Translations under genes and position numbers: made by a program
Notes under the pieces: generated by a model
Database searches by the model: none
Told to the model about the DNA's origin: nothing
Seen by the model: only the letters and a program-made list of their open reading frames with translations
Shown: positions 27,018 to 42,601 of the stretch, one piece after another
How the letters are laid out: the number at the start of each line of letters is the position of its first letter
How positions within the stretch are numbered: the first letter of the stretch is position 1
Source of the DNA: Planctomycetota bacterium
GTDB taxonomy: Bacteria; Planctomycetota; UBA8108; JACQVS01
Reading direction: 5' to 3'
DNA: 64,000 nt
Assembly (NCBI GenBank): GCA_041569895.1
Contig: JBFFXF010000001.1
Span: forward strand, 1,043-65,042

Positions 27018-27018
27018 G

Positions 27019-28602
27019 TCAACACTCCGGGAGCCCGTCCGGCGTCGGATCGAGACCGGCTTCCGGGAACGGCTCCGGCATCGGCGGTCCACCCTGGAAG
27101 AGGAAGTTCAGGATGTAGACGCCGTCGGAGAGGTCCGTGTTGCCGTCGTCGTTGGCATCGAGGGAGTCGCGGCACGGAGACGCGGCCGGCTGGCCGAGGA
27201 ACAGGTCGTTGAAGACGGAGACGCCGTCGGAGAGGTCGACGTTGCCGCTGTTGTTGGTGTCGCCGCGAATGAAAGGCGTCCCCGCGGGGTAGCAGAAACC
27301 CCTGTCGTCGAAGTCACAGCCCGCGTCGGTGCACACCTCGACGCGCACGCAACCCCCCGCGTCACACTCGGGGGCGGTCACGAGGAGCTGTGACCCCCCG
27401 CCGCCGAGCTCCGCGGGCACGACGACACCGCACACGCGGACGACGAGGTTCGGGGCGTCGGTGAAGTTGCGGCCGATGATGAAGAACGTCGATCCGGCCT
27501 CACCCTCGTTGTTGACGAAGGAGTCGATGACCGGGACGCCCGGCGGCTCGGGATAGGTGAAGCCGTCGGGATCCGTCACGCAGCCGAAATCGTTGCAGAC
27601 CTCGACCCCGGCGGGGCCCGGACCGCAGTCGGGCGCGGTCACCTGGATCGTCTGCGGGTTCGGCACGTTGAAGGTCGCCTCGGCGCCGAAGACCCGGACG
27701 GTGGTCCCCGGCTTGTCGAAGTTCTCGCCGACGACGATGAACACCGTTCCCGGCGGGCCGCTGTTGTTGATGTACTGGTCCTCGAAGATCACCGGCGCGT
27801 TCGACGGGTACTCGAACCCCTCGGGCTCGACGGTGCAGCCGAAGTCGTTGCAGACCTCGATGCGCGCCTTGCCAGGAGTGCACTCTGGAGCCGTCACCTG
27901 GAGGTTCTCGTCATCGATCACGATGAACTCCGCCGGCTTGTTGCAGACCGAGACGCGCAATCCCGGCTGTTCGAAGTTCTCGCCGACGATGAAGAAGATC
28001 GTTCCCGGATCGCCGCGGTTCTGGGCGAAGTCGGTCAGCTTCGGCCGCGGATCGATGATGGTGAGGTCTCCATCCTCGAGATTCGGGGGCGGCGAGAAGG
28101 AGTTCCCGTCGGAGTCGGTCATGACGTTCGTCCGCACGGGGCTGACGTTCGTCCGGTTGACGAGGTTGAGCACGGTCTCCGTGGCAGTCGAGGAACGCAC
28201 GTCGATGACGAGTCGCAGGAGCTCGAGATCGGATCCCGGCTCGAGGTGCCGATCCGCGGTCGCCTGCGACGTGCTGAAGACGACGCCCCAGACCACGCGG
28301 CCGGCGCTGTCGTCGATGGTCCCGTCGGCCCATTCGGGGGACAGGCCGGCGACGGCGTCGCCGAGCTGGACCTCCTTGATCCGGATCTTCGTGCGCTCGT
28401 ACTCGATGGAGATCGAGAATCCGTAGAGGTCCTCGTCGACATCCGCGCGGATCGAGATGACCTGGTTCGCCGCGTTGATCGGCAGCCTCGCGTCCTCGAT
28501 GGAGAAGCGATTCACCGCCTGGAGGTCCGTTCCCGTGGTCAGGATGACGACAAGGAGAAGCACGCCGAGGAGCGCGCCCGTGTGCGACTGTCGAAAGCTC
28601 AT
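27019..28602 (-). CDS. secreted protein with four IPT/TIG-like repeats and C-terminal dockerin-like EF-hand pair
   Basis: Signal peptide. Repeated ~90-aa units (GTIFFIVGENF...VTAPECxPG...VEVCNDFGC). C-terminal GDTNNSGNVDLSDGVSVFNDLFLG and DANDDGNTDLSDGVYILNFLFQGG. Confidence 0.7.
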   Translation of the reverse strand: MSFRQSHTGALLGVLLLVVILTTGTDLQAVNRFSIEDARLPINAANQVISIRADVDEDLYGFSISIEYERTKIRIKEVQLGDAVAGLSPEWADGTIDDSAGRVVWGVVFSTSQATADRHLEPGSDLELLRLVIDVRSSTATETVLNLVNRTNVSPVRTNVMTDSDGNSFSPPPNLEDGDLTIIDPRPKLTDFAQNRGDPGTIFFIVGENFEQPGLRVSVCNKPAEFIVIDDENLQVTAPECTPGKARIEVCNDFGCTVEPEGFEYPSNAPVIFEDQYINNSGPPGTVFIVVGENFDKPGTTVRVFGAEATFNVPNPQTIQVTAPDCGPGPAGVEVCNDFGCVTDPDGFTYPEPPGVPVIDSFVNNEGEAGSTFFIIGRNFTDAPNLVVRVCGVVVPAELGGGGSQLLVTAPECDAGGCVRVEVCTDAGCDFDDRGFCYPAGTPFIRGDTNNSGNVDLSDGVSVFNDLFLGQPAASPCRDSLDANDDGNTDLSDGVYILNFLFQGGPPMPEPFPEAGLDPTPDGLPEC

Positions 28603-28744
28603 ATTTGACTCTGCAGTCCTGTTTTCCACGCTGGAAGAGGATCCCGGACGGCTCTGGCCGACCAGCCACGTCGAGCGCCCGGGTACCGTGAGCCGGGACC
28701 CACCCCACCCCAATCCGCAGATTATCTCACAGCTCGCGGGCGGC

Positions 28745-28835
28745 TTGCAGAAATTTCTCGGGCGCCTTCGGCGGGGACGGGGACGGGCACGGGCACGGGT
28801 ACGGGAACGGGTACGGGAACGATTACGGGAGTCAC
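28745..28835. repeat. hexamer array (GGGGAC/GGGCAC/GGGTAC/GGGAAC)n
   Basis: Direct reading. Between the M29 aminopeptidase stop and the IPT-protein start. Confidence 0.7.
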
Positions 28836-28851
28836 GACCGCGTCCGTGTGT

Positions 28852-29973
28852 TCAGCTCTCGCCCAGGCGGTCCGGATTGAGGCCGGCGAGGTCGTCGGTG
28901 ACGAAGATCCCGTCCCTGCGGATCGGCTCGCCGTCGAAACGGATCTCGCCGCCGCCGTACTCGGGTCGCTGGATCGTCACCAGGTCCCAGTGGATCTCGG
29001 AGCGGTTGCCGTTGTCGGCCTCCTCGTACGCCTGGCCGGGAGTGAAGTGGAACGAGCCGGCGATCTTCTCGTCGAAGAGGATGTCGAGCATCGGCGTCAG
29101 GATGCGCGGGTTGAATGCGATCGAGAACTCGCCGACGTACCGCGCTCCCTCGTCCGAGTCGAGGATCTCCTCGATGCGCTTCTGGGGCCTCGCCGAGACG
29201 TTGACGACGCGGCCGCGCTCGAACTCGAGGACGATGTTCTCGAAGACGACCCCGTGGTACGGGCTCGGGGTGTTCACCGAGAGCTTCCCCTCGACCGAAT
29301 CGCGCACCGGCGCGGTGAACACCTCGCCGTCCGGGATGTTCTGGGTTCCGGCGCAGCCGATCGCCGGGATGCCCTCGATCGAGAAACGGAGATCGGTGCC
29401 GGGACCGATGATGTGCACTTCGCGCGTCTTCTCCATGCGCTCCACCAGCGGCTCCATCGCCCGCGCCATGGCGACGTAGTCGAGCGTCGACACGTCGAAG
29501 AAGAAGTCCTCGAACGCCTCCGTCGATTGCCGCGCGAGCTGCGCCATCGAGGGGTTCGGCCAGCGCAGCACGACCCATTTCGTCTTCGGCACGCGGATCT
29601 CGCTGTGCACTCTCTTCCAGAGCGTGCGCTGGAAGATCGCCAGACGTTCCTGGGGGATGTCGGAGTGCTCCGAGATGTTGCTCGAGCCGCGGACGCCGAT
29701 GTAGGCCTGCACGTTCTCCATCTGGAGCTTCTCGACCTCGGCCCAGAGCTCCATCTGCTCCGCGCTCGCGTTCAGGTAGAGCTCGCGAAGAACACGGTTG
29801 TGCTTCGTCATGCAGAGGGGCACGCCGCCGGCCTCGACGACCGCGCGGATGAGAACGACGAGGAACTCCTCCGGGATGTCGTAGGCCTCGATGAGCACCT
29901 TCTCGTCGGGGTTGATCTTGGTCGAGTGGCCGACCAGAATGTCGGCGAGTTTCCTGTAGCGTGGATCGAACAC
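28852..29973 (-). CDS. M29-family aminopeptidase (AmpS/PepS-like)
   Basis: About 370 aa with typical M29 length and conserved acidic/His positions. GTG start chosen at VFDPRYRKLADILV; a longer ATG start at 30084 is possible. Confidence 0.65.
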   Translation of the reverse strand: MFDPRYRKLADILVGHSTKINPDEKVLIEAYDIPEEFLVVLIRAVVEAGGVPLCMTKHNRVLRELYLNASAEQMELWAEVEKLQMENVQAYIGVRGSSNISEHSDIPQERLAIFQRTLWKRVHSEIRVPKTKWVVLRWPNPSMAQLARQSTEAFEDFFFDVSTLDYVAMARAMEPLVERMEKTREVHIIGPGTDLRFSIEGIPAIGCAGTQNIPDGEVFTAPVRDSVEGKLSVNTPSPYHGVVFENIVLEFERGRVVNVSARPQKRIEEILDSDEGARYVGEFSIAFNPRILTPMLDILFDEKIAGSFHFTPGQAYEEADNGNRSEIHWDLVTIQRPEYGGGEIRFDGEPIRRDGIFVTDDLAGLNPDRLGES

Positions 29974-30115
29974 AGACCGTCTCCCTTCGCTGATCGAGGC
30001 CTCAGTCCGGCCGTCTCGGTCGTCGAGATCGTTGGTCGCGGGTTCCGGAGAATGTACCCGGAACGGTTCACGACCTGAATCCAAAACCTGATTCCCGGCT
30101 CCCGGGTCGCGCGTC

Positions 30116-32774: not shown

Positions 32775-32984
32775 GAGAACCTCCGATCGAGTGAGAGAAA
32801 GGAATCCGTGGCCGCCGGCCCAAAGCGGCGGCGCTTTCCCCCCGCACAACCGGAGCGCAGGCCGTGTCAAGGACGACGAAGTCGCCGAGCAAAGCGAGGG
32901 AATCCTTGATATGGCCGAGCACCGGTTACAATCGACCGGTCGACGCCGCCGCCCCCCGCCGATCTGAACGCCTCCGCATCGACT

Positions 32985-33060
32985 CTGCCCTCTGCCCTCT
33001 GATCTCTGATCTCTGATCTCTGATTTCTGGTCTCTGATCTCTGATCTCTGTCTCCGTCCC
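32985..33060. repeat. heptamer tandem repeat (CTCTGAT)n with (CCCTCTG) lead-in
   Basis: Direct reading: ctctgatctctgatctctgatctctgatttctggtctctgatctctgatctctg. Confidence 0.75.
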
Positions 33061-33066
33061 CCCCCC

Positions 33067-34026
33067 TCACCTCACCGACCGATACGACACCGACCCGTTC
33101 CGTGACTGGATACGGATCGACCCCCCGCCGCCGTTCAGTCTGGCGTGCAGGCGTCTCTTGTCGCTCTCGATGAGCTCCGCGCTGGTGCCGTGAAAGTCGG
33201 TCGACAGGCTGCCGTTCGAGGTCTCCATCTCGAGGACGGCGCGGACGGTCGCGGGGAGGTCGACGCTGATCTTTCCGTTCGAGGTCGCGATGTCGATCTC
33301 CGGCGTCTCCGGCAACGCGACCGCGACCAGCTCGATCGGGCCGTTGCTCGAGCGCAGGTGCGCGTTTCCCTTGACGCCGTGCGCCACGATCTTGCCGTTC
33401 GAGGTCACTGCCTTGACTTTCTCCCGGCCGCCGCCGTCGATGCGGATGGCGCCGTTCGACGTGCGCAGGTCGAGGTCGCCAGTGACCGCCTTTACCTCGA
33501 TCTTGCCGTTCGAGGAACGCGCGTTCACCGACCCGTCGATTGACGCGACGTTCACCGCGCCGTTGCTCGACTCGATTGTGACGCTGCCGCGCGTGCCCTC
33601 GGCCGTGACCCGGCCGTTGCTCGTCCGGGCACCCAGATCGATCTCCGGCGGCAGCACGATCTCGAAATCGACTCCGGGAGATCGCCGACGGAGCGCTTCG
33701 GGGATCACCGCGGCGATCCGCAGGGTGTCACCGTCCTCCACGCGCTCGACCGTGACGTCGATCTTCTCCGCGTGCTCTCGGGCGTCATCGTCGGATACTC
33801 CGCGCGCGAACTTGGCCCCGCGGATGCTCGCCTGCTCGACGCCGTCGCGGCACGCCACGGTGATGGCGCCGTTGCGCGTCTCGACCTCCACTCGGGTGAG
33901 GCCGCCGACGTCCGCCGACAACTCGAACGGGATCCTGGCCCTCGACGGGTACGCCTCGCAGCCGACGGCGACGATGGCGACGATGGCGACGATGACGACG
34001 AATGGGACGAAGAGCTCGACTCTCAT
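33067..34026 (-). CDS. DUF4097-like beta-helical lipoprotein (SNGxI repeat adhesin-like)
   Basis: Lipobox VAVGC. About 10 repeats of TSNGxI. Confidence 0.6.
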   Translation of the reverse strand: MRVELFVPFVVIVAIVAIVAVGCEAYPSRARIPFELSADVGGLTRVEVETRNGAITVACRDGVEQASIRGAKFARGVSDDDAREHAEKIDVTVERVEDGDTLRIAAVIPEALRRRSPGVDFEIVLPPEIDLGARTSNGRVTAEGTRGSVTIESSNGAVNVASIDGSVNARSSNGKIEVKAVTGDLDLRTSNGAIRIDGGGREKVKAVTSNGKIVAHGVKGNAHLRSSNGPIELVAVALPETPEIDIATSNGKISVDLPATVRAVLEMETSNGSLSTDFHGTSAELIESDKRRLHARLNGGGGSIRIQSRNGSVSYRSVR

Positions 34027-34071
34027 GGCGATCCCTCCTCTCGGTCGAGAGAAATCGTGCCGTGACGCGGC

Positions 34072-35223
34072 TCAGGTTCGCAGGCGCGGATCCATCGCGT
34101 CGCGAAGCGCCTGGCCGACCAGATTGAACGACGTCACCGTGATGAAGATCGCGAGCCCCGGAGCCCACGCCAGGTAGAAGAGTCCCTCGCCGACGAACTC
34201 GCGGCCCTGCGCGACGATCTCGCCCCACGACGCCGTCGGCGGGACGACGCCGAAACCGAGGAACGACAGGGCGTTCTCCGTCAGCACCGCCGCCGCGACA
34301 CCGAACGTCGCGGTGACGAAAACCGGCTGGATGGCGTTCGGCAGGATGTGGCGAAACATCACGCGTCGCGGCGGCGCCCCGAGCGCGCGAGAGGCGTCGC
34401 AGTACTCGAGCGTCTTCACGCGCAGCACCTCGCCCCGCATCAGCCGGAAGATGGCCGTCCACCTGGTCAGCCCGATGACCAGCATGATGGTATAGATCGA
34501 CTTCGGCAAAAAAGCGATCATCGTGATGATCAGAAAGAAGGTCGGGAAGCACATCACGACCTCGGTGATGCGCGAGAGCACGGTGTCGATCCAGCCGCCG
34601 GCGTAGCCGGCGATCAGCCCCAGCACGACACCGATGATGACGTAAATCGACACCGCCACGACGCCGACCGAGAGCGAGACGATGGTCCCGTGGATCAGTC
34701 GCGCGAGGACGTCACGGCCCTGTCCGTCGGTGCCGAGGAGGTGCGTCTCGACCTGGTCGGGCGCCGGGCCCCAGCGGGTGGTCTCGAGCGGCCGGAGCTT
34801 GAACGCGTTGATCTCCCTGTAGCCGGAGAAGATCGGCGGCGCGATGTACCAGTCGCCGCGCGACGGGTCCCAGTCGGTCGCGATGGTCTCCTTCCAGCTC
34901 TTGCGGCCGAGCTCGGGATAGAAGTCGGAAAACGGGTTGCCGTCGCCGATTCGCAGTCGCCTCAGCCAGTCGACGACGACGCCGGGGAGCGGGAAGGAGT
35001 CGAGGTACGTCGGGAACGCCGGGAAGCAGAGCGAGCCCTGGTATCGCGCGACGATCGGGACATCGTTCGCGAGCAGAGGCGCGAGGAGGGCGACGACCAC
35101 CAGCACGGAGAGCACCGCGAGTCCCAGGACTCCCAGGCGGCTCTTCATGAACTGCCGCCGGACGATGGTCCAGGAGCTCCTGGCGCGCGGGAGCGGATCG
35201 GCTCGGACTGCAGGTCGCATCAT
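34072..35223 (-). CDS. ABC transporter permease, DppC/OppC-like
   Basis: N-terminal periplasmic extension, BPD transporter EAA-like motif region, 6 TM helices. ATGA overlap with the upstream permease. Confidence 0.85.
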   Translation of the reverse strand: MMRPAVRADPLPRARSSWTIVRRQFMKSRLGVLGLAVLSVLVVVALLAPLLANDVPIVARYQGSLCFPAFPTYLDSFPLPGVVVDWLRRLRIGDGNPFSDFYPELGRKSWKETIATDWDPSRGDWYIAPPIFSGYREINAFKLRPLETTRWGPAPDQVETHLLGTDGQGRDVLARLIHGTIVSLSVGVVAVSIYVIIGVVLGLIAGYAGGWIDTVLSRITEVVMCFPTFFLIITMIAFLPKSIYTIMLVIGLTRWTAIFRLMRGEVLRVKTLEYCDASRALGAPPRRVMFRHILPNAIQPVFVTATFGVAAAVLTENALSFLGFGVVPPTASWGEIVAQGREFVGEGLFYLAWAPGLAIFITVTSFNLVGQALRDAMDPRLRT

Positions 35224-37112
35224 TTCAGCTCGATCCTCGGGTCGACGATGCAGTAGAGCAGGTCGGAGATCAGGATGCCGATCATCGTCAGCACCGCGAC
35301 GAGCGTCGTGATCCCCATGATCACCGGATAGTCGCGCTGGAGGACGGCCTCGAAGCCGAGCGATCCCATGCCGGGAAGCGAGTAGATGCGCTCGATGATC
35401 ACCGAGCCGCCGATCACCGTCGGCAGCAGGTTCCCGAACACGGTGACGACCGGCAGCAGCCCGTTGCGCAGCGCGTGCACGCCGACGACGCGGCGCTCGG
35501 GCAGCCCCTTGGCGCGGGCCGTGCGCACGGCGTCCTGCGAGAGCGCCTCGAGCATGCTGGAGCGAACCAGCCGCGACAGGAACGCGAAGCTCGCGTACGT
35601 CAGCGCGGTCAGGGGCAGCACCAGGTGCAGCAGGTGATCCCAGACGTAGCTCAGGAACGGCAGGTCGCCGGCGTTGTCGGAGTGGAGGTTGACGAACGGC
35701 AGGATGCCGCCGGTCGGCCCCGCCGGACTTCCCAGCAGAATGATCAACATCGTCGCGACCCAGAAGCTCGGCATGCTGTAGAGCAGGAAGAGGACGAGTG
35801 TCGTCGCCTGATCGGACATCGAGTTCCGCCGGGCGGCGGAGAAGACGCCGAGCGGGATCGAGAGCAGATAGGTGATCAGGATCGAGACCAGGTTGAGCTC
35901 CAGGGTCACCGGCATCGCCTCGACGATCTTGTCCCAGACGGGACGGTCGTCCTTGAAGGAGAGGCCGAAATCGAGCCGGACAAGGCGCGAGAGCCAGTCG
36001 ACGTACGCCGGCACGAGCGGGACGTCGTCGACGTCGAGCGCGGCGGAGACGACACGCCCACCGTCACCGACCGCGACGGCGCGGACGACTCCCGAGTGGC
36101 CGGCGAGCGTGGCGCGCAGTCGACCCGCGGCGACATCCCAGAGCCGCACCGAGGCATCACGGCCGCCGGAGACGAGCAGATCTCCATCGCCGAGAGCGAC
36201 CGATTCGACGACCGCCGTGTGGCCGTCGAGGCGCGCCGTCACGGCGCGCCGGGCGGTGTCGATGAGCGCCACCGCGTTGTCGCCGAGACCCGCGGCGATC
36301 CGGCTGCCATCGGCGGCGACGTCGATCGCGTGGACCGGCGCACCGCAGTCGACCGGCGCGCCGACCTCCCTCCGTGTCGCGGCGTCCCAGAAACGCACCG
36401 TCCGGTCTCGCGAGGCCGACACGAGCACGCCGCCGGACAGCGACTCGACTCCGGTGACCTCGCCGATGTGCGCCTCGATCACATCCACGAGCTCGCCGGT
36501 GCGCGCGTTCCAGACCCGGACGGTCGCATCGCGTGAGCCGGTGATCAGGAGGTCGTCGTCCGCGAACGCGGCGCACCGGACGAGCAGGCCGTGCCCGGCG
36601 CACGTGGCCACCGGGCGGCCGGTCTCGACGTCCCACACGCGAGCGGTGCGGTCGTCGGAGCACGACGCGATGAGCGTCCCGTCGGGCGAGAAGGCCACGG
36701 CGTTGATCGCCGCTCCGTGGGCCTCGATGGTCCGCGGAGCGCGTCCCGGCTCGATCGGTCGCAGCACGATGCGTCCGTCGGCGGTGCCCGCGGCGACGAT
36801 CGTGCCTCCCGGCGACGTCGCCAGCGCGAGGACCGCGTCAGTCTCCGTCGTCGTGCCGACTCGCCTGCCGCTCCCGGAGTCCCACGATCGGATGGTCGCG
36901 GTCTCCTCGAGCAGGCCGAGCCGGATCTTCGAGCGCACGATCTGACGCTCGCGGTCGGAGAAATCACCGCCGCCCTCGAAGCCGCCGCTCGCCGCGATCG
37001 AGAACGCCACGGGGTCACCGGGCGCGAGGCGGATGATGAGAAACGTCACCATGGTGATCCCGAGGAGTGTCGGGATCATCAGCAGCAATCGTCGTGTGAT
37101 GTACTGGATCAC
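35220..37112 (-). CDS. ABC transporter permease, DppB/OppB-like, with a seven-blade WD40 beta-propeller of about 290 aa inserted in the first periplasmic loop
   Basis: N-terminal MIQYITRRLLLMIPTLLGITMVTFLIIRLAPGDPV and C-terminal ...DLLYCIVDPRIELK are canonical DppB ends in one continuous 630-aa frame. Residues ~95-385 contain WD repeats (SDDRTARVWDV, RDATVRVWNA, RDRTVRFWDA, RDASVRLWDV). Confidence 0.85.
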   Translation of the reverse strand: MIQYITRRLLLMIPTLLGITMVTFLIIRLAPGDPVAFSIAASGGFEGGGDFSDRERQIVRSKIRLGLLEETATIRSWDSGSGRRVGTTTETDAVLALATSPGGTIVAAGTADGRIVLRPIEPGRAPRTIEAHGAAINAVAFSPDGTLIASCSDDRTARVWDVETGRPVATCAGHGLLVRCAAFADDDLLITGSRDATVRVWNARTGELVDVIEAHIGEVTGVESLSGGVLVSASRDRTVRFWDAATRREVGAPVDCGAPVHAIDVAADGSRIAAGLGDNAVALIDTARRAVTARLDGHTAVVESVALGDGDLLVSGGRDASVRLWDVAAGRLRATLAGHSGVVRAVAVGDGGRVVSAALDVDDVPLVPAYVDWLSRLVRLDFGLSFKDDRPVWDKIVEAMPVTLELNLVSILITYLLSIPLGVFSAARRNSMSDQATTLVLFLLYSMPSFWVATMLIILLGSPAGPTGGILPFVNLHSDNAGDLPFLSYVWDHLLHLVLPLTALTYASFAFLSRLVRSSMLEALSQDAVRTARAKGLPERRVVGVHALRNGLLPVVTVFGNLLPTVIGGSVIIERIYSLPGMGSLGFEAVLQRDYPVIMGITTLVAVLTMIGILISDLLYCIVDPRIELK

Positions 37113-37161
37113 GATCGAGGCGGAGCTCGCCAGGCATCCGCGGGCGCGGCCGCGGCGACGG

Positions 37162-39183
37162 TCAGCTGTCGTCGTCCTTCGCGTCGTCCTTCAGCCAGAT
37201 GGTCGTCGGCCTCAAGCCGGTCTTGCCGATCCGGACGCCGCCGAACTTCTTGTTGATCAGCGCGCCGACTCTCCCGTGCGTGAGGAGAAGCATCGGCACG
37301 TCCTCGTGGAAATGACGGTTGAAGCGGTGAAACATCTCGGCGCGCTTTTCATCGTCGAACTCGCGACGCATCGCCTCGAGGAGCCGGTCGACCTCCTCGT
37401 TCTTCCAGCCGGCATGATTTCCGGCCCGCTCGATGCCCTGCGACGAGTGGAAGTTGTCGTAGGGGTCCATCCACGGGTCTTCCGGAGAGAGGAGCAGGCA
37501 GATGGCGTCGAACTCGCGATTGAAGAGCGCCTCGGTGAACTGCGACCACTCGGATTTGTCGATCGTGCAGTCGACGCCGACCGACTTGCACGCGTCGTTG
37601 ACCAGCACGCCGATGGTGTCGTACCAGGTCCTGCCGGCGGGAACGGTGAGCTCGAAGCGCAGCGGGACGCCGCCACGGTCGCGCACGCCGTCGCCGTCGC
37701 TGTCCTTCCATCCCGCCTCGTCGAGGAGGCGAGCCGCGAGCTGCGGATCGAAGCGACGCGGCTCGATGTCGTGCGAGTACTCGCGGTAGATCGGCTTCGT
37801 GGGGCAGGTCGCGATCTGGCCGCGCCCGCGTTCCATGTCCTTCCAGATGCGCTCGCGGTCGACGAGGTGGGCGATGGCGCGGCGGACCCGGACGTCGTCG
37901 AAGGGCGGGCGTCGGCAGTTGAACGTGATGTGCGAGAAACCGATGCGCGTGTGGTCGTACTCGTACCGGTCCGCGATCCCGGTGATCGTCGGATCGTTCT
38001 CGAGCTGGTCCTCCCACATCGAATGCTCGACGGAGACGACGTGAATCAGCCCCTTCCGGAACGCCTCGATCATCGATACGCGGTCCCGCACCCAGCGCCA
38101 CCGCAGCCGCTCGAGACGGTAGTGGTCGGGGTTCAGCGCGCGCAGCCACGCCCGGCCGTTCGCGAACAGCGTGACGTGCTGCGAGACCACCCGTGACTGG
38201 CCCTCGACCCACGTGTAGGGGCCCGTTCCCGGCGGCATCTCCTGCCCGAGGAGGTTGAAGACCTCCGCGAAACCGGGCTCGAGCGGCGTGACGCTGAAAC
38301 GCTCGATCCCCCGCTCTCGCGCCACGGCGGGGATCTTCCGCTCGTAGTACTCCTGCGGGAAGATCCGCAGCGCGTACCCGAACTGCTTGAGCGCCTTCCA
38401 GTACTTTCGCCGCATGCGCACCTCGACGGTGAGGGGATCGATCTTGCGCACGCTCGCCACGTCGTTGAAGGACGACTTGCGGCTCTCCGACTTGACGTCG
38501 GGATCGGCGACGAGGTTGTAGCTGAAGATGACGTCGTCGGCGTCGAAGGGAGACCCATCGGAAAAGGTCACGCCGCGGCGCAGGTGGAACCGGTAGGTGA
38601 GGCCATCGTCGCCGGTCTCCCATGCCACGGCGAGCTCCGGCCAGAGCTCCTGCGGGTTGTCGGGATTGACCGTGAAGAGCCGCTCGTGCACCTGCTCGTC
38701 GATCACCGACGCCATGCCGTCGTTGGTGAGGTAGTAGTTGTAGAGGCCGGGCTCGGCCATCCATCCGAAGATGAATGTCCCGCGCCGCGGCGGGATGAAG
38801 GCGGGTTGCCGTGCGGTGGTGCGGCCCGGAATCTCGGCGCCCGGAGGCGGCTCGATGGTGAAGCCGGGCGTCGCCTCGAGCGGTCGCCCGATGGCGTCCT
38901 TGCCGTCACCGAACCGTGCGGCGCCGGTCGAATCGGACCCGGCCCCCGTACCCGGCGCGGCGTCGATCCGCACCGGCCCGCCGGAGCCACGCACCTCGAG
39001 GACGATCCGATCGAGCCCCTCGACGCGCACCGACCGCGCCTGCACCTCCTCGATCTCGCGCCGCAGCTCGATGATCTTCTCCTGCTGGTGATCGAGAGAA
39101 CGCAGGATCATCCAGAGCGTGACGAGGATCAGACCGAGGAGAAAGACGATGATCACTCGTCCTGTGGTCCAGCCTTCGTTCAC
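37162..39183 (-). CDS. ABC transporter substrate-binding protein, family 5 (DppA/OppA-like), membrane-anchored with coiled-coil linker
   Basis: SBP_bac_5-type sequence. N-terminal TM anchor (RVIIVFLLGLILVTLWMIL) followed by a charged linker. GTG start at 39181-39183; the longer ORF start lies inside a hexamer repeat. Confidence 0.75.
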   Translation of the reverse strand: MNEGWTTGRVIIVFLLGLILVTLWMILRSLDHQQEKIIELRREIEEVQARSVRVEGLDRIVLEVRGSGGPVRIDAAPGTGAGSDSTGAARFGDGKDAIGRPLEATPGFTIEPPPGAEIPGRTTARQPAFIPPRRGTFIFGWMAEPGLYNYYLTNDGMASVIDEQVHERLFTVNPDNPQELWPELAVAWETGDDGLTYRFHLRRGVTFSDGSPFDADDVIFSYNLVADPDVKSESRKSSFNDVASVRKIDPLTVEVRMRRKYWKALKQFGYALRIFPQEYYERKIPAVARERGIERFSVTPLEPGFAEVFNLLGQEMPPGTGPYTWVEGQSRVVSQHVTLFANGRAWLRALNPDHYRLERLRWRWVRDRVSMIEAFRKGLIHVVSVEHSMWEDQLENDPTITGIADRYEYDHTRIGFSHITFNCRRPPFDDVRVRRAIAHLVDRERIWKDMERGRGQIATCPTKPIYREYSHDIEPRRFDPQLAARLLDEAGWKDSDGDGVRDRGGVPLRFELTVPAGRTWYDTIGVLVNDACKSVGVDCTIDKSEWSQFTEALFNREFDAICLLLSPEDPWMDPYDNFHSSQGIERAGNHAGWKNEEVDRLLEAMRREFDDEKRAEMFHRFNRHFHEDVPMLLLTHGRVGALINKKFGGVRIGKTGLRPTTIWLKDDAKDDDS

Positions 39184-39480
39184 ATCACGTCTCCGTTCTT
39201 CTTCCGGGCCCGGTTCTCGTCCTCGTCCTCGTCCTCGTCCTCGAAAACCCCTCGTCACCGCGTTGGATGTCCGATACCGAGACCGCTTTCGACCCTGACT
39301 CTGACTCCGACGCCGACCCCGATACCGACTCCGATACCGCTTCCGACCCCGATTCCGATACCGGCGCCGACACCGACCCCGACTCCGACACCGACACCGA
39401 TTCCGACTCCGATACCGATATCCTCGCGTGTGCTCTGCTCTGTCCGGTCACTTTCCGCGTGCTCTTCGTTTCCGCCCCCC
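39184..39480. repeat. composite intergenic hexamer-repeat element: (TCCTCG)n then (CCGAYN)n x~25
   Basis: Direct reading. Divergent spacer between the SBP gene and the FHA-M64 gene. Confidence 0.75.
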
Positions 39481-39583
39481 GCTTCCCGATCCCACCCTCT
39501 GGCCGTCGAGTGTATCATAGACCCTCTTGTTTCGACTCTCCCGCGTGAAGAGAGGCCGGCGCACCCATCACGGAGTTCCTCGC

Positions 39584-42500
39584 ATGAGAATCGTTCTCGA
39601 GGAGAACGCCGCCCGGCGCGTGTTCGAGTTCGAGGAGGGTCGCGAGCTGGTCCTCGGCCGCGCCCCGGACTGCGATATCCCGCTCGCGACGCTGCGCGCG
39701 TCGCGTCACCATGCCCGGATCGTCCTCGAGGACGGCCGGCACTGGCTGGTCGACGAGGGCTCGTCGAACGGGACTCTGGTCAACGGCGCGCGGGTGGACC
39801 GGCGCGCGCTCTCATCGGGGGACGTCATCGCCATCGGCGAGGCGCTGCTCCGCTTCGAGACCCACCGCCGGACCGGACTGGCGTTTCCCGGCGTCTACGC
39901 CGCGTTCCTCGCGCTGCTCTGGGCGGTGCTGGTGGTCTCGCTGGTCGTGCTGGCCGTGCGCCAGCTCACCGACGAGGGGGAGCGGCTGGCGGTGCGACGG
40001 GCGGGGTCGGTCTCCGGCATGGAGTCGGCCGGGGATCGCGGGAGCGCCGCGGATTCGGGTGCGGGTGCCGTACCCGTTCCCGTACCCGCTCCCGTACCCG
40101 TACCCGTACCCGTACCCGTTCCCGTACCCGTTCCCGACACCGACATCGAAACCGACACCGAAACCGACACCGATACCGATACCGATACCGATACCAAGAC
40201 CGACAGCGATTCCCGGGTGGCCGATGTGCTTCGTCCCATCATTGCCGGGGAGCGTGGCTGGGAGGGTGTCGATGCGCTCGTCGCGCTGCGCTCCGGGTCG
40301 CCGGATGCCGAGGACATGCCGTTTCTCGATCGGCTCGTGCCGGTGCTGCGCGGGCTTCGCGAGGGCGCGTGGCGTCGTCTCGACGAGCAGGCGGCGACCG
40401 CGATCGCGGCGCTCGTCGAGCGCGGCGAGGCGCGTTCCGCGGCGGCGACGGCGCGCTTCCTGGCGGTGGTCGCGCCGGGGGAGGACGCTCGTTCGCGCTG
40501 GGAGTCGGCGGCGCGATCGATCGAGGACAGCGTGGACCTCGAGTCGGACGGCGAGACGCAGCCTGTCGTGCCGCGCGAGGATCGGCGGCCCGACGACGAG
40601 CCGCTCTCATCGCCCGAGGCGCTCGCGCTCAAGGATCGCATCGCCGAGGCGATCGAGCAGTGTCGTTTCGATGAGCTCTCCTCGATCTACCACGCCCTGC
40701 TCGCCCTCGGGCCGTCGCCCGGCGAGCGCCTCCGCCTGCTCGAGGGATTGCTCGCGGCGTACGCGATGGAGGTGATGTTCGGCGAGTTCGTCGCGCGTGC
40801 GGCGACCGACCCGCCCGCGGTGAGCCCGTACGCGGGCTACGAGGGGCGCGTCCTCGAGGTGTCGCGCGATGCCGTCCGCTTCGAGCTCGACATCGAGGGG
40901 CGCGAGGGCGCGTACCGTGACAGCACGACGTGGCGCCGGATCACCTGGCCGAAGAAGCTCGAGCTCTTCAGCAGCGTCCCCCTGAGCCCGCGCGGCCTCG
41001 TCGGCGTCGCGCTCTACGCCTTTCACCACGGACACGAGGAGGGCGCGCACGCGGCGCTGATCCGCCTTCGCAAGCGCAAGGATGGCGCGACGCTCGCGGA
41101 CAGCGTCCTCGCGAGCCGGCTCGGCGTGCCGGTGCCGCCTGGCGGGTTCGTCGAGTATCGCGGCCGTCTCGTCACGCCGGAGTATCGCGCCGCCGAGATC
41201 GCCCGCCGCGAGCGCCTCGAGGAGGAGGAGCGCGCCGCGCGAGCGGAGCTCGAGCAGCTCAAGAAGGAGGCGGGGCTCGCCGCGTACGTGCAGGTCGCCC
41301 GCCGCTATCGCGAACGCGGGCTCTTCGAGCTCGCCCAGCACATCCTCGAGGTCCTCGCGCGACGCTTCTCGAACACCGAGGCCGGCGCGGAAGCGAGGCG
41401 GCTCGCCGATGATCCCGTCCTCGTCGTCAGGCCGATCGCCGCTTCCGGTCCGTCGAGCAACCGACTCGACATCTGCCTCCTCGGCGAGGGTTACACGCTC
41501 GACGACGAGGCGCAGGACGCGTTCCTCGCGCGCGCCCGCTCGGCGGCGTCGCTGCTCTTCAGGGAGGAGCCGTACCGCGAGTACGCCTCGTACTTCAGCC
41601 TGCACGCCGTGCAGGTCGCCTCGGCAGAGCACGGTCTCGATCGCGAGCCCGGCGGAGTGGCTCGCGACACCGCTCTCGGCGGCCGAGTCGAGTGGGACCG
41701 CTTCACCGTGGACGAGTCGCTGGTGCGCGCGATCCTCGCACGACTCGGCGATCGCGGCCGCGACGGACAGGCGGTGGTGATCGGGAACGCCCACGCCGGC
41801 GTGGCGACCGCGAGCCCCGGCATCGCGTGCATCTCGAAGATCGCGGTCGCCTCGCTCGGGCACGAGCTCGGCCACTCGCTCGGCAGCCTGCGCGACGAGT
41901 ACGACTTCGAGCCCGGCACCGATCCCGAGCGCCACGTCGACAACCGCCGCGAGCCCGACGTCCCGACCGCCGCGCTGCCGCCGAACATCATGCGCGGCTC
42001 GGACCGCGACGACGTGCTCGAGAAGGCCATCTGGCGGCCGTGGATCGAGGCGGGCGAGTCGCGGTGGTGGAACGGCGCCGGGGTCTCCGCCTTCCAGGGC
42101 GGCAACCGCAGGCGCTTCAACTACTGGCGCCCGCAGGCGACATGCAAGATGCGCACGTCGAGCGCGGAGTTCTGCGTCGTTTGCATGGAAGCGATGGTGA
42201 AGAGCATCTACCGCCACGTGCGCCCGATCGATCGCGTCGAGCCGTCGAGCGAGGAGGTCACCATCGACGAGGGCGGCTCGACGAGCGTGCGCGTCTGGAC
42301 CCTGAAGCCGCGCTCGCGATTCCTCGAGACGACCTGGCGCCTGGTCGAGCTCCAGGCGGAGCCGAACGCGACCGGAACCACCTCGGTCGCCGGCGACACA
42401 CGACCGGTCCCGCTCGCCAGGACCGGCCGCCGCATCGACCCGTCAGGCGCGCCGATCGAAATCGCCATCCTCCGGGACCTGGCGCCCGGACGCTACCGGC

Positions 42501-42601
42501 TTCAGGTCACCGTGCGAGACACGACGCCGTGGGTGCTCGACGACGGTGAGGGGCTGCTGTCGGAGGTGCGGGACTGGACGGTGGTGGTGCGGGGGCGGTG
42601 A
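39584..42601 (+). CDS. FHA-domain transmembrane protein with extracytoplasmic peptidase M64 (IgA-peptidase-like HExxH...DEY) domain
   Basis: N-terminal FHA (GRAPDCDIPL...SRHHARI...SSNGTLVNG). TM helix AFLALLWAVLVVSLVVLAV. C-terminal HELGHSLGSLRDEYD zinc-metallopeptidase motif. Confidence 0.8.
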   Translation: MRIVLEENAARRVFEFEEGRELVLGRAPDCDIPLATLRASRHHARIVLEDGRHWLVDEGSSNGTLVNGARVDRRALSSGDVIAIGEALLRFETHRRTGLAFPGVYAAFLALLWAVLVVSLVVLAVRQLTDEGERLAVRRAGSVSGMESAGDRGSAADSGAGAVPVPVPAPVPVPVPVPVPVPVPDTDIETDTETDTDTDTDTDTKTDSDSRVADVLRPIIAGERGWEGVDALVALRSGSPDAEDMPFLDRLVPVLRGLREGAWRRLDEQAATAIAALVERGEARSAAATARFLAVVAPGEDARSRWESAARSIEDSVDLESDGETQPVVPREDRRPDDEPLSSPEALALKDRIAEAIEQCRFDELSSIYHALLALGPSPGERLRLLEGLLAAYAMEVMFGEFVARAATDPPAVSPYAGYEGRVLEVSRDAVRFELDIEGREGAYRDSTTWRRITWPKKLELFSSVPLSPRGLVGVALYAFHHGHEEGAHAALIRLRKRKDGATLADSVLASRLGVPVPPGGFVEYRGRLVTPEYRAAEIARRERLEEEERAARAELEQLKKEAGLAAYVQVARRYRERGLFELAQHILEVLARRFSNTEAGAEARRLADDPVLVVRPIAASGPSSNRLDICLLGEGYTLDDEAQDAFLARARSAASLLFREEPYREYASYFSLHAVQVASAEHGLDREPGGVARDTALGGRVEWDRFTVDESLVRAILARLGDRGRDGQAVVIGNAHAGVATASPGIACISKIAVASLGHELGHSLGSLRDEYDFEPGTDPERHVDNRREPDVPTAALPPNIMRGSDRDDVLEKAIWRPWIEAGESRWWNGAGVSAFQGGNRRRFNYWRPQATCKMRTSSAEFCVVCMEAMVKSIYRHVRPIDRVEPSSEEVTIDEGGSTSVRVWTLKPRSRFLETTWRLVELQAEPNATGTTSVAGDTRPVPLARTGRRIDPSGAPIEIAILRDLAPGRYRLQVTVRDTTPWVLDDGEGLLSEVRDWTVVVRGR
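40070..40210 (+). repeat. in-frame hexamer arrays (CCCGTN)n + (ACCGAY)n encoding (PV)n and (TD)n inside the FHA-M64 gene
   Basis: Same two hexamer families as the intergenic elements; here the frame is maintained. Confidence 0.8.

What the first reader, a model, noticed from the sequence alone, without database searches (positions are those of the whole stretch)
35220..37112. DppB-type ABC permease carrying a seven-blade WD40 beta-propeller inserted in its first periplasmic loop
One uninterrupted 630-aa frame begins with a canonical DppB/OppB N-terminus (TM1 plus the PGDP loop) and ends with a canonical DppB C-terminus (...DLLYCIVDPRIELK). E. coli DppB is about 339 aa. The extra ~290 aa (about nt 35960-36830) form clear WD40 repeats with the (S/T/R)xDxTxRxWD signature. 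From the established DppB topology the insert is predicted to be periplasmic, which is unusual for WD40. The same operon has a membrane-tethered SBP with a coiled-coil linker and no ATPase genes. The neighbouring region also encodes an STK whose WD40 propeller is extracytoplasmic. I am not aware of a described ABC importer with this architecture. It suggests a sensing, scaffolding or protein-capturing role rather than plain peptide uptake.
Basis: partly seen in the sequence, partly recalled or inferred. Interest (0 to 1): 0.8.

Follow-up and report, generated by a model that had tools for sequence, protein, structure and literature searches.

The report
Peptide permease carrying periplasmic WD40 propeller
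A membrane subunit of a Dpp/Opp-type peptide ABC importer carries a complete seven-bladed WD40 propeller on its periplasmic side, next to where the binding protein docks; the architecture is real, conserved, rare and apparently undescribed, and its function is only inferred.

Summary
Nt 35220-37112 (-) is one 630-aa ORF. It has a DppB-type TM1 and scoop motif (aa 1-66), a seven-bladed WD40 propeller (aa 68-362, nt 36027-36911), and the rest of a DppB-type permease (aa 363-630).

With the propeller removed in silico, the protein aligns end to end with E. coli DppB (E 1e-55). The insert sits between scoop helix alpha2 and alpha3, beside the element that plugs into the binding protein's cleft. 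Hydropathy, the K/R-rich EAA loop and solved DppB structures place the propeller in the periplasm.

About 44 full-length homologues (38-56% identity) form one clade. All come from MAGs or metagenomes; the named ones are Planctomycetota, Myxococcota, Oligoflexia and 'Alphaproteobacteria'. All eight loci examined are SBP-B(WD40)-C with no adjacent ATPase; seven SBPs have an N-terminal membrane anchor and one is truncated.

The coupling helix RTARAKGL is invariant, so this is still an ATPase-driven importer with NBDs encoded elsewhere. The propeller surface is not conserved.

Best reading: a periplasmic docking platform for the tethered binding protein, analogous to MalF-P2. This is inferred, not shown. 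No paper describing it was found. It is a new variant of a known kind.

The parts
37162..39258 (-). Cluster-C (SBP_bac_5) substrate-binding protein, 698 aa. It has an Arg-rich cytoplasmic N-terminus, a TM anchor at aa 34-52, a conserved juxtamembrane heptad-patterned helix (LDHQQEKIIELRREIEEV), and a ~100-aa linker before the binding domain (aa ~206-690).
   Evidence: Pfam SBP_bac_5 E 3e-67. One hydropathy peak at aa 34-52. The same N-terminal layout occurs in the SBPs of 7 of 8 WD40-permease loci. The nearest solved relative is AppA, 1xoc.
35220..37112 (-). B-type ABC importer permease with an inserted WD40 propeller, 630 aa, GTG start.
37011..37112 (-). aa 1-34: N-in TM1 (aa ~9-29) and the PGDP motif.
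   Evidence: Aligns with E. coli DppB residues 1-34. Hydropathy peak at aa 9-27. AF2 helix at aa 2-29.
36912..37010 (-). aa 35-67: retained periplasmic scoop motif. It comprises helix alpha1 (aa 34-40), a Gly-rich flexible loop, helix alpha2 (aa 48-64) and the invariant K62/L65/G66 'LGL' motif.
   Evidence: Aligned with DppB residues 35-57. AF2 helices, with pLDDT below 50 in the loop at aa 33-48. Invariant columns. The role of the scoop motif in E. coli DppB is described in PMC12136057.
36027..36911 (-). aa 68-362: seven-bladed WD40 beta-propeller. Blade 7 is split 2+2: strands c,d come from the N-side (aa 72-90) and strands a,b from the C-side (aa 343-358). Strands b7 and c7 extend as a two-stranded stalk to the membrane domain.
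35223..36026 (-). aa 363-630: helix alpha3 and TM2-TM6 of the permease core (BPD_transp_1). The stop codon is at 35220-35222.
35502..35525 (-). aa 530-537, RTARAKGL: the EAA/coupling helix that contacts the ATPase in DppB. R530, T531, A532, R533, K535, G536 and L537 are invariant and A534 is in >=90% of 43 family members.
   Evidence: invariant columns. The K/R-rich loop at aa 513-554. The 'RTA' coupling helix of DppB is described in PMC12136057.
34072..35223 (-). C-type permease, 383 aa (OppC_N + BPD_transp_1), with an extended ~120-aa periplasmic loop 1. Its ATG overlaps the B stop codon (ATGA), implying translational coupling.
33067..34026 (-). DUF4097 'toastrack' protein with an N-terminal hydrophobic segment, 45 nt downstream on the same strand. 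It may be co-transcribed, but it is not conserved next to the cassette in other lineages.
   Evidence: Pfam. Present in L001 but absent from L002, L003, L004 and L085-L088.

Best explanation
What is shown or well supported:
- The gene encodes the B-type membrane subunit of a PepT-family (Dpp/Opp-like) type I ABC importer.
- A complete seven-bladed WD40 propeller has been inserted into the periplasmic TM1-TM2 loop, exactly at the C-terminal end of the scoop motif.
- It is made together with a C-type permease (translationally coupled) and a membrane-anchored cluster-C binding protein.
- It still couples to DppD/F-type ATPases, which must be encoded elsewhere in the genome.
- The insertion happened once and defines a small clade of uncultured bacteria.

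What is inferred:
- The propeller hangs on a short two-stranded stalk that leaves from the b-c turn of blade 7, so its canonical 'top' interaction face points back toward the membrane and the docking site.
- It therefore lies beside the docked binding protein.
- I think it most likely acts as a docking and retention platform. It would hold or orient the tethered binding protein, or its conserved juxtamembrane stalk, at the translocator. This raises the local concentration and makes docking specific, as the MalF-P2 domain does for MalE.
- Peptides released from the binding protein then pass the scoop and the B/C channel in the usual ATP-driven way.
For: Identity and contiguity:
- One ORF with both domain families.
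- 43 full-length homologues at 38-56% identity and an exact copy in an NCBI assembly.

Insertion point:
- The propeller-deleted sequence aligns 1-339 with E. coli DppB 1-336 in one stretch. The gap falls between 'LGL' and 'DKP'.
- In E. coli DppB, residues 32-62 form the alpha1-loop-alpha2 scoop motif that inserts into the DppA cleft (PMC12136057).

Topology:
- Six hydropathy peaks; the EAA loop has 8 K/R, and the N-terminal RR precedes TM1.
- There is no extra hydrophobic segment flanking the insert.
- Solved DppB/OppB structures share the same core.

Fold:
- AF2 mean pLDDT 88, with block means of 88-97 (mostly 93-97) in the propeller.

Still a transporter:
- RTARAKGL and most TMD columns are invariant.
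- TMD conservation is 0.74, against 0.49 for the propeller.

Conserved cassette:
- 8 of 8 loci are SBP-B(WD40)-C with no ATPase within +-10 kb.

Single origin:
- All 44 WD40 permeases are monophyletic on a tree built from the TMD core alone.

Link to the SBP:
- In every WD40 locus with an intact SBP 5' end, the SBP has a TM anchor plus a conserved juxtamembrane helix.
- A second, separate clade with 140-260-aa helical loop-1 inserts also has TM + coiled-coil SBPs.
- The sampled relatives whose SBPs carry a lipobox include all the short-loop permeases and also several with ~130-170-aa helical inserts.

Orientation:
- The propeller's chain ends lie at a b-c turn. This is a top-face element by the standard definition (PMC3419727).

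Precedent:
- MalF-P2, a folded periplasmic TMD insert, binds MalE with Kd 7-22 uM throughout the transport cycle (PMC6906923).
Against: - No direct evidence exists for any propeller-SBP contact. No complex model could be computed here.
- The propeller surface is poorly conserved. Top and bottom loops are equally conserved (0.50 vs 0.48). The predicted top-face hotspot positions are variable (0.21-0.72). Only framework residues are invariant. A conserved docking interface would be expected to leave some trace, unless it co-evolves with the SBP.
- A TM-anchored SBP is already held at the membrane, so an extra retention device is not obviously needed.
- The correlation between large loop-1 domains and TM-anchored SBPs rests on two clades and an unbootstrapped NJ tree. 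It is also not clean: several lipoprotein-SBP relatives have 130-170-aa inserts.
- The inferred orientation of the propeller comes from strand topology, not from coordinates.
Confidence: 0.45

Rival explanations
1. Substrate or protease capture platform. The propeller binds unfolded polypeptides, or recruits periplasmic or exported peptidases. Proteolysis then happens at the mouth of the importer, and the products are handed directly to the binding protein.
For: - WD40 top faces typically bind peptides (PMC3419727; WDR5-peptide complexes are among the closest folds).
- Peptidase genes lie within 10 kb in 6 of 8 loci, often several per locus: M64, M29 and M28 in the window; M29, M28 and C39 in L003; S41, C2 and M1 in L002; S41, M1 and S8 in L088; M14 adjacent and divergent in L085; an alpha-2-macroglobulin in L086.
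- The SBP's closest solved relative binds oligopeptides.
Against: - No single peptidase family is conserved next to the cassette.
- L004 and L087 have no peptidase nearby.
- The loci are phylogenetically non-independent pairs.
- The top-face hotspots are not conserved.
- The chain topology suggests the top face points toward the membrane rather than out into the periplasm.
Confidence: 0.2
2. Passive structural role. The propeller is a bulky spacer or steric gate. It might exclude non-cognate soluble binding proteins, shape the docking site for a dimeric coiled-coil-tethered SBP, or anchor the transporter to peptidoglycan or outer-membrane components in a wide periplasm. It would need no specific ligand.
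For: - The fold is maintained in all 44 members, but the surface evolves freely.
- The same loop in related permeases tolerates unrelated helical inserts of 100-260 aa with no Pfam match. Bulk at this position therefore recurs regardless of fold.
Against: - A 295-aa propeller kept intact with high fold confidence over 38-56% sequence divergence is an expensive way to obtain bulk.
- No peptidoglycan- or OM-binding motif was detected.
Confidence: 0.12
3. Sensor or 'trigger transporter'. The cassette has lost transport as its main role. It instead reports periplasmic ligand or protein status through the propeller to a signalling partner, for example the Ser/Thr kinases common in these genomes.
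For: - No ATPase genes are adjacent in any of the 8 loci.
- STK genes sit just upstream of the cassette in L004 and L087.
- The window encodes a receptor STK with extracytoplasmic WD40s.
Against: - The NBD-coupling helix is invariant, and the translocation core is the most conserved part of the protein.
- Lack of adjacent ATPases is shared by most of the closest non-WD40 relatives sampled (L006-L013; a few, such as L028, do have downstream ATPases), so it is not specific to the propeller.
- The window's STK is 25 kb away, and its WD40 is only ~29% identical to the insert.
Confidence: 0.08
4. Artefact or misplacement. The fusion could be an assembly or frameshift artefact joining two genes, or the WD40 could actually be cytoplasmic.
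For: The data are MAG-derived. Canonical WD40 domains are mostly cytoplasmic in characterised systems.
Against: - 44 independent full-length sequences from NCBI, JGI, ENA and Logan assemblies share the same junctions.
- The N-terminal 66 aa and C-terminal 268 aa are two halves of one DppB, and each is non-functional alone.
- A cytoplasmic insert would invert TM2-TM6 and put the EAA loop outside, which contradicts its 8 K/R and its invariance.
Confidence: 0.02

Closest known systems
E. coli DppBCDF-DppA and OppBCDF, and M. tuberculosis Dpp/Opp (PepT family type I ABC importers; PDB 8z1v, 8z21, 8j5q, 8wd9)
   Same: The same permease core: TM1 + PGDP, scoop motif alpha1-loop-alpha2, alpha3, five further TMs and the RTARAKGL coupling helix. 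The partner is a C-type permease, and the binding protein is cluster-C.
   Different: - A 295-aa WD40 propeller sits between alpha2 and alpha3.
- The scoop loop is Gly-rich and longer, and lacks the E41/R42 pair.
- The SBP is TM-anchored, although the host is a diderm.
- The ATPase genes are not in the operon.
- Every NCBIfam equivalog model scores below its cutoff, so the substrate cannot be transferred by homology.
MalF P2 loop of the maltose importer MalFGK2-E
   Same: A folded periplasmic domain inserted in a TMD loop of a type I importer. It projects ~3 nm and binds the SBP throughout the cycle (PMC6906923). This is the best functional analogy.
   Different: MalF-P2 is an Ig-like fold of ~185 aa between TM3 and TM4 of a sugar importer. 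It is unrelated in sequence and position, and in that system the scoop loop is on the other subunit (MalG P3).
SBD-TMD fusions (GlnPQ, OpuA; MalE-MalF fusion of Bdellovibrio)
   Same: An extracytoplasmic globular domain is covalently attached to an importer TMD (the Bdellovibrio case is cited in PMC6906923; GlnPQ and OpuA are from my own knowledge).
   Different: In those systems the fused domain is the substrate-binding domain itself. Here the SBP is a separate TM-anchored protein, and the fused domain is a protein-interaction propeller.
Type VII ABC systems (MacB, LolCDE, FtsEX)
   Same: A large periplasmic domain lies between TM1 and TM2 of the membrane subunit (from my own knowledge).
   Different: Those have an FtsX-type four-helix TMD and Porter/Sabre folds, and they act by mechanotransmission rather than import. 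No homology was seen here: Pfam finds BPD_transp_1 only.
Receptor-type Ser/Thr kinases with extracytoplasmic WD40 propellers (e.g. window 9229-12630; T. curvata PkwA WD40, PDB 5yzv)
   Same: These are the closest WD40 sequences and folds: 30-41% identity to ~1000-aa planctomycete WD40 and STK-WD40 proteins, and 5yzv is the top Foldseek hit. The window's own STK places its WD40s outside the membrane.
   Different: Their membrane anchor is a single TM helix with a kinase output, and propeller closure is canonical. The window's STK is not a recent donor of the insert (29% identity).
Sister B-type permeases with non-WD40 loop-1 inserts (e.g. L026 593 aa, L032 569 aa, P0102 540 aa, L010 462 aa)
   Same: They belong to the same permease clade, share the insertion site after the scoop motif, and mostly lack adjacent ATPases. 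One sub-clade also has TM + coiled-coil SBPs.
   Different: Their inserts appear helical from sequence (not modelled), are 100-260 aa long, and match no Pfam family. They too are uncharacterised.

Membership tests
PepT-family (Dpp/Opp/Nik) B-type ABC importer permease | BPD_transp_1 (MetI-like) transmembrane domain scoring above the Pfam gathering score | tested here: met
   120.7 bits against a cutoff of 26.4, over aa 419-628.
PepT-family (Dpp/Opp/Nik) B-type ABC importer permease | EAA/coupling-helix motif in the cytoplasmic loop between TM4 and TM5 | tested here: met
   RTARAKGL at aa 530-537 is invariant or near-invariant (A534 >=90%) in 43 sequences. It aligns with the DppB coupling helix.
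PepT-family (Dpp/Opp/Nik) B-type ABC importer permease | Six TM helices, N-in, with TM1-PGDP at the N-terminus and a periplasmic scoop motif before alpha3 | tested here: met
   Hydropathy and charge distribution, AF2 helices, and end-to-end alignment with E. coli DppB after removing the insert. This is prediction only; no experimental topology exists.
PepT-family (Dpp/Opp/Nik) B-type ABC importer permease | Operon partners: a C-type permease and a cluster-C SBP | tested here: met
   OppC_N + BPD_transp_1 downstream, overlapping by 4 nt, and SBP_bac_5 upstream. The arrangement is conserved in 8 of 8 loci.
PepT-family (Dpp/Opp/Nik) B-type ABC importer permease | Cognate DppD/DppF-type ATPases encoded with the permeases | tested here: not met
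   None in the 64-kb window or within +-10 kb in 7 other loci. Whether orphan NBD genes exist elsewhere in the genomes could not be tested.
PepT-family (Dpp/Opp/Nik) B-type ABC importer permease | Equivalog-level match to a named transporter (DppB, OppB, NikB, YejB, GsiC, SapB) | tested here: not met
   All NCBIfam hits are far below their curated cutoffs. The best is 246 bits against 350.
PepT-family (Dpp/Opp/Nik) B-type ABC importer permease | ATP- and SBP-dependent peptide transport | not testable with these tools
   Needs reconstitution or genetics.
WD40-repeat seven-bladed beta-propeller | WD40 repeats scoring above the Pfam gathering score | tested here: met
   PF00400 scores 141 bits against 27, in 4 stretches. 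PF25173 scores 175.6 bits against 154.
WD40-repeat seven-bladed beta-propeller | Seven four-stranded antiparallel blades closing into a ring | tested here: met
WD40-repeat seven-bladed beta-propeller | GH / WD dipeptides and the Asp-His-Ser/Thr-Trp framework | tested here: inconclusive
   The framework is clear in blades 2, 3, 4 and 6 (..RVWD..RVWN..RFWD..RLWD; H215, H298, D236, D319, W242 and W325 are >=90% conserved). It is degenerate in blades 1, 5 and 7.
WD40-repeat seven-bladed beta-propeller | Canonical 1+3 'velcro' closure (first strand d plus last strands a-b-c) | tested here: not met
   Blade 7 is closed 2+2: strands c,d from aa 72-90 and strands a,b from aa 343-358. The chain therefore enters and leaves at a b-c turn (definition in PMC3419727). 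This is based on the model only.
MalF-P2-type SBP-docking domain (functional analogy only) | Folded periplasmic domain inserted in a TMD loop of a type I importer | tested here: met
MalF-P2-type SBP-docking domain (functional analogy only) | Ig-like fold between TM3 and TM4 | tested here: not met
   The insert is a WD40 propeller between TM1 and TM2. The comparison is with the description in PMC6906923.
MalF-P2-type SBP-docking domain (functional analogy only) | Direct binding of the cognate SBP | not testable with these tools
   No multimer prediction or experiment was available.
Type VII ABC (MacB/FtsX/LolC) | FtsX-type four-helix TMD with a Porter/Sabre periplasmic domain | tested here: not met
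   Pfam finds only BPD_transp_1 and WD40 families.

The most novel reading that the evidence does not exclude
The propeller would make this a new functional class of type I ABC importer that works on proteins in the periplasm. Because it is attached directly to the mobile scoop motif, SBP docking and the ATP cycle would move the propeller. The propeller in turn would hold unfolded polypeptides or a partner peptidase. Extracellular or periplasmic proteolysis and peptide uptake would then be physically coupled in one machine, a 'degradation-uptake metabolon' in protein-scavenging Planctomycetota, Myxococcota and Bdellovibrionota.
Probability: 0.12. Interest if true: 0.85.

Novelty: new variant of a known kind. 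Interest (0 to 1): 0.6.

Why it matters
Type I ABC importers are textbook machines, and their periplasmic face is normally just short loops plus a scoop. The MalF-P2 domain has been described as a unique extended periplasmic domain of the maltose transporter (PMC6906923).

This finding has four consequences:
- A full protein-interaction propeller is grafted exactly at the scoop motif, the site that contacts the binding protein's ligand pocket.
- The TM1-TM2 loop of this permease clade is a hotspot for acquiring large domains: WD40 here, and unknown helical domains in relatives.
- Canonical WD40 propellers are exported and used in the periplasm of several phyla.
- It gives a defined, testable case of how accessory domains tune SBP-translocator coupling when the SBP is membrane-tethered.

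If the propeller recruits proteases or polypeptides, it would link protein degradation to uptake in environmentally abundant but uncultured predators and scavengers.

Tried and rejected
- Exhaustive representative search with the whole protein. It was swamped by giant multi-WD40 proteins. Only 4 family members were among the best 150, so it cannot be used to size the family.
- Genome-collection scan with the family alignment. It yielded only one further WD40 member (L005), but it usefully exposed relatives with other loop-1 inserts.
- Profile search with the 43-sequence alignment. It found no additional full-length members. The family is about 44 clusters at 90% identity, all from MAGs or metagenomes, and no cultured isolate was found.
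- Search for a conserved surface patch or conserved top-face hotspots on the propeller. Negative: only framework residues are conserved.
- The window's own STK-WD40 as donor of the insert. Rejected, because identity is only generic at ~29%.
- Pfam scan of the alternative loop-1 inserts in sister permeases. No domain was recognised.
- Promoter and terminator scan of 32800-39700. Nothing above shuffled expectation, so it is uninformative for operon limits.
- The AFDB Foldseek library was unavailable, so I could not ask whether UniProt/AFDB holds full-length structural matches.
- A chimeric or multimer structure prediction of B+SBP was considered and not attempted.
- Coiled-coil propensity of the SBP stalk was judged only from heptad spacing (8 of 12 a/d positions hydrophobic). 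It was not scored with a dedicated predictor.

Full report
**1. The observation**

The minus strand between 35220 and 37112 carries one open frame of 630 codons starting with GTG. Its third-position GC of 0.91 matches the other real genes of this 69% GC window.

Pfam finds two kinds of domain in it:
- WD40/beta-propeller families over residues ~71-360 (E 1e-51; PF00400 141 bits against a cutoff of 27).
- BPD_transp_1 over residues 419-628 (E 8e-35).

NCBIfam models for B-type peptide/nickel permeases (DppB, NikB, OppB, YejB and others) match in two pieces: the N-terminus and residues 363-629. All score well below their curated cutoffs.

The GTG start is the right one. MIQYITRRLLLMIPTLLGITMVTF.. 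matches both the family consensus and E. coli DppB. The shorter 619-aa call in the public assembly would remove part of TM1's cytoplasmic flank.

The propeller is aa 68-362, which is nt 36027-36911.

**2. The fusion is real**

An identical protein is present in NCBI assembly GCA_041609175.1 with the same neighbours. A search of 5.8 billion clustered proteins returned 43 further full-length homologues:
- Lengths are 619-673 aa (one further hit, P0013, is a 503-aa fragment).
- Identity is 38-56% with 98-100% coverage.
- Each has both WD40 and BPD_transp_1.
- They come from NCBI, JGI, ENA and Logan assemblies.

Named examples are MAGs of Planctomycetota, Myxococcota, Oligoflexia and 'Alphaproteobacteria'. 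They are annotated only as 'ABC transporter permease subunit'. A profile search with their alignment found no more. The family is therefore small (about 44 clusters at 90% identity) and known only from uncultured organisms.

**3. Where exactly the propeller sits**

I removed residues 71-359 in silico. The remaining 341 residues align in one uninterrupted stretch with E. coli DppB (8z1v_A; 1-339 against 1-336, E 1e-55). The only gap is at the deletion point, between the conserved 'LGL' and E. coli's 'DKP'.

The cryo-EM study of DppABCDF (PMC12136057) shows what this region does:
- DppB residues 32-62, between TM1 and helix alpha3, form a periplasmic scoop motif (alpha1-loop-alpha2).
- The motif is disordered without DppA.
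- When DppA docks, the motif inserts into the cleft between the two DppA lobes and contacts its peptide-binding residues.
- Deleting the motif impairs growth on dipeptide and cuts ATPase activity to about a quarter.

The window protein keeps this motif. AF2 predicts helices at 34-40 and 48-64, separated by a Gly-rich loop with pLDDT below 50. K62, L65 and G66 are invariant. The propeller follows immediately. It is thus grafted at the alpha2/alpha3 junction, next to the binding-protein docking site.

**4. Topology**

Hydropathy gives six TM segments: 9-27, ~400-426, 440-458, 494-512, 555-573 and 597-615. No additional hydrophobic segment flanks the insert.

The charge distribution fits the standard orientation:
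- The N-terminus carries RR.
- The loop 513-554 that contains the EAA/coupling helix has 8 K/R.
- The loop 459-493 has none.

This is the N-in/C-in topology seen in the solved DppB and OppB structures. Loop 1 (aa 28-395), with the propeller, must therefore be periplasmic. A cytoplasmic propeller would invert TM2-TM6 and put the invariant coupling helix outside the cell. This is a strong inference, not an experiment.

Exported WD40 propellers are not unique to this gene in the genome. The Ser/Thr kinase at 9229-12630 has its kinase domain at aa 106-365, a single TM helix at ~404-424, and two propellers after the TM.

**5. The fold**

AlphaFold2 with the 43-sequence alignment gives mean pLDDT 88 and pTM 0.73. 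Ten-residue block means across the propeller are 88-97, mostly 93-97.
- Foldseek's best PDB matches are the prokaryotic PkwA WD40 (5yzv, 35-39% identity, TM 0.83-0.86), a designed 7-blade propeller (TM 0.90) and WDR5.

Seven repeats are visible in the sequence, four of them ending in WD or WN.

One unusual feature is how blade 7 closes. It takes strands c and d from the N-terminal side (aa 72-90, '..TATIRSWD..') and strands a and b from the C-terminal side (aa 343-358). Strands b7 and c7 continue as long paired strands (68-78 and 353-363) toward the membrane domain. Canonical WD40s close 1+3, and the b-c loops lie on the 'top' face, which is the usual interaction face (PMC3419727). By this topology, the propeller's top face at blade 7 is the side connected to the permease. 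This is inferred from the strand order, because I had no coordinates.

**6. Gene context**

In the window the order on the minus strand is:
- SBP (37162-39258).
- B(WD40) (35220-37112).
- C-type permease (34072-35223). Its ATG overlaps the B stop codon as ATGA.
- DUF4097 (33067-34026).

I examined seven further loci of family members: L002, L003, L004, L085, L086, L087 and L088. All have SBP_bac_5 - B(WD40) - C. The DUF4097 gene is not conserved next to the cassette.

No ABC ATPase is present in the 64-kb window. Pfam was run on the main GC3-supported ORFs. A Walker A + LSGGQ scan found none in the window or within +-10 kb of the other seven loci. The same scan finds the two expected ATPases downstream of classical dpp/opp operons retrieved in the same session, such as Brevibacillus L038, L046 and L047.

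The absence of ATPases is shared by most of the closest non-WD40 relatives sampled (L006-L013), although a few (L014, L026, L028, L032) have an ATPase-like ORF nearby. It is therefore a trait of this part of the clade and not of the propeller.

The coupling helix RTARAKGL is invariant or near-invariant in all 43 sequences, and the TMD is the most conserved part of the protein (0.74 against 0.49 mean top-residue frequency). I conclude that the system still works with NBDs, which are encoded elsewhere.

**7. The binding protein**

The SBP is a cluster-C protein. Its closest solved relative is the oligopeptide-binding AppA of B. subtilis.

It is not a soluble periplasmic protein or a lipoprotein. 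In order, it has:
- a short, Arg-rich N-terminus;
- one TM helix (aa 34-52);
- a conserved juxtamembrane helix (LDHQQEKIIELRREIEEV), with 8 of 12 a/d positions hydrophobic in the best heptad register;
- a 60-120-aa low-complexity linker;
- a conserved pre-domain segment.

This layout recurs in seven of the eight loci; the eighth SBP is 5'-truncated.

The relatives show a pattern:
- All sampled relatives with short loop 1, and several with ~130-170-aa helical inserts (L009, L017, L021, L022), have lipobox SBPs.
- A separate clade whose B permeases carry 140-260-aa helical loop-1 inserts (L023, L024, L032, L036) also has TM + coiled-coil-like SBPs.

Very large loop-1 domains and TM/coiled-coil-tethered SBPs therefore go together in at least two lineages. 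This is the main, and still indirect, reason to link the propeller functionally to the SBP.

**8. Evolution**

I built a neighbour-joining tree from the C-terminal 268 residues only, with no propeller sequence in it. All 44 WD40 permeases fall in one clade. That clade is nested among relatives whose total length varies from 329 to 593 aa because of different loop-1 inserts. Those other inserts match no Pfam family.

The propeller was thus acquired once, at a site that is an insertion hotspot in this clade. The tree has no bootstrap support values.

The nearest WD40 sequences outside the family are ~1000-aa planctomycete WD40 and kinase-WD40 proteins at 30-41% identity. The window's own STK is not a recent donor (29% identity).

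**9. What the propeller does**

Nothing here shows a function directly.

Points in favour of a docking or retention platform for the tethered SBP:
- Its position next to the scoop motif.
- The membrane-facing orientation implied by the chain topology.
- The association with tethered SBPs.
- The precedent of MalF-P2. This folded periplasmic insert binds MalE with micromolar affinity throughout the cycle (PMC6906923).

Points against:
- The propeller surface is not conserved. Top loops score 0.50 and bottom loops 0.48. The predicted hotspot positions at the start of each strand a score 0.21-0.72. Only framework residues (GH, D, W) are invariant.

Two rivals fit that lack of conservation about as well: a structural or steric role, and a lineage-specific partner.

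The protease or polypeptide-capture idea draws some support from peptidase genes within 10 kb in six of eight loci: M64, M29, M28, M14, S41, M1, S8, C2 and C39. However, no single family is conserved, two loci have none, and the loci are not independent.

I therefore put about 0.95 on the structural identity and periplasmic location, 0.45 on the docking-platform mechanism, 0.2 on capture or recruitment, 0.12 on a passive structural role and 0.08 on a sensor role.

**10. Comparison with what is known, and novelty**

The protein is a member of the PepT-family B-type permeases by every sequence criterion tested. It is not an equivalog of any named transporter. It differs from all solved or described members by the propeller.

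The insert is a bona fide seven-bladed WD40, but with a non-canonical 2+2 closure.

Functionally the nearest analogue is MalF-P2, which differs in fold, position and family. SBD-TMD fusions and type VII ABC systems share only the general idea of a periplasmic domain on an ABC membrane subunit.

Full-text searches found no description of such a protein. I searched WD40 + ABC transporter permease + periplasmic; WD40 + oligopeptide + permease + Planctomycetes; and prokaryotic WD40 architectures. The library does not cover all journals.

I rate the finding as a new variant of a known kind. It would be interesting to ABC-transporter specialists because of where the domain is inserted. The score is limited by the absence of any functional evidence and by the rarity of the family.

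Noticed in passing
window 17501-19813 (-): A 770-aa protein with six Kazal-type serine-protease-inhibitor domains (Kazal_1 E 1e-47). To my knowledge such domains are uncommon in bacteria.
   Followed up: no
window 39527-42601 (+): A 1024-aa protein transcribed divergently from the SBP gene. It has a cytoplasmic FHA domain (aa 42-104), a TM helix (~aa 125-145), a PV/TD low-complexity spacer and an extracytoplasmic Peptidase_M64 domain. It looks like a phospho-signal-linked exported peptidase placed next to the importer.
   Followed up: partly
window 9229-12630 (+): A receptor-type Ser/Thr kinase: kinase domain at aa 106-365, a single TM helix at ~404-424, then roughly 700 aa with two WD40 propellers outside the membrane. 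Its WD40 is only ~29% identical to the permease insert.
   Followed up: yes
window 34072-35223 (-); L086 9669-11177: The C-type partner permease also has an unusually long (~120 aa) and conserved periplasmic loop 1 (ANDxPI..Y.G.L.FPA..TY.D..). The L086 orthologue is 502 aa, with a further ~120-aa insert in the same loop.
   Followed up: partly
L026 797-2578, L032 5204-6913, L010 10001-11389, L017/L022 10001-11473, P0102, P0074: Sister B-type permeases carry 100-260-aa, apparently helical inserts at the same loop-1 site, with no Pfam match. Loop 1 after the scoop motif is an insertion hotspot across Bacteroidota, Myxococcota, Lentisphaeria, Sumerlaeota and others. These inserts appear uncharacterised.
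   Followed up: partly
L023 6494-8428, L024 5455-7440, L032 3238-5154, L036 3802-5838: SBPs paired with the long helical-insert permeases also have an N-terminal TM anchor followed by a coiled-coil-like helix. SBPs of all sampled short-loop relatives, and of some relatives with mid-sized helical inserts (L009, L017, L021, L022), have lipoboxes.
   Followed up: partly
window 47535-51443 (-): A 1302-aa protein combining ASH/HYDIN-type Ig-like repeats with multihaem cytochrome c7/c3 motifs.
   Followed up: no
window 25413-30084 (-) and L003 14773-20519: A block of GT87 glycosyltransferase, M29 aminopeptidase, TIG-domain protein and M28 peptidase is syntenic with the cassette in the window and in the closest metagenomic relative (L003). 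It is a possible peptide-scavenging neighbourhood.
   Followed up: partly
window 33067-34026 (-): A DUF4097 'toastrack' protein with an N-terminal hydrophobic segment lies 45 nt downstream of the C permease on the same strand. It is present only in the window and its identical assembly copy, and not in other family loci.
   Followed up: partly
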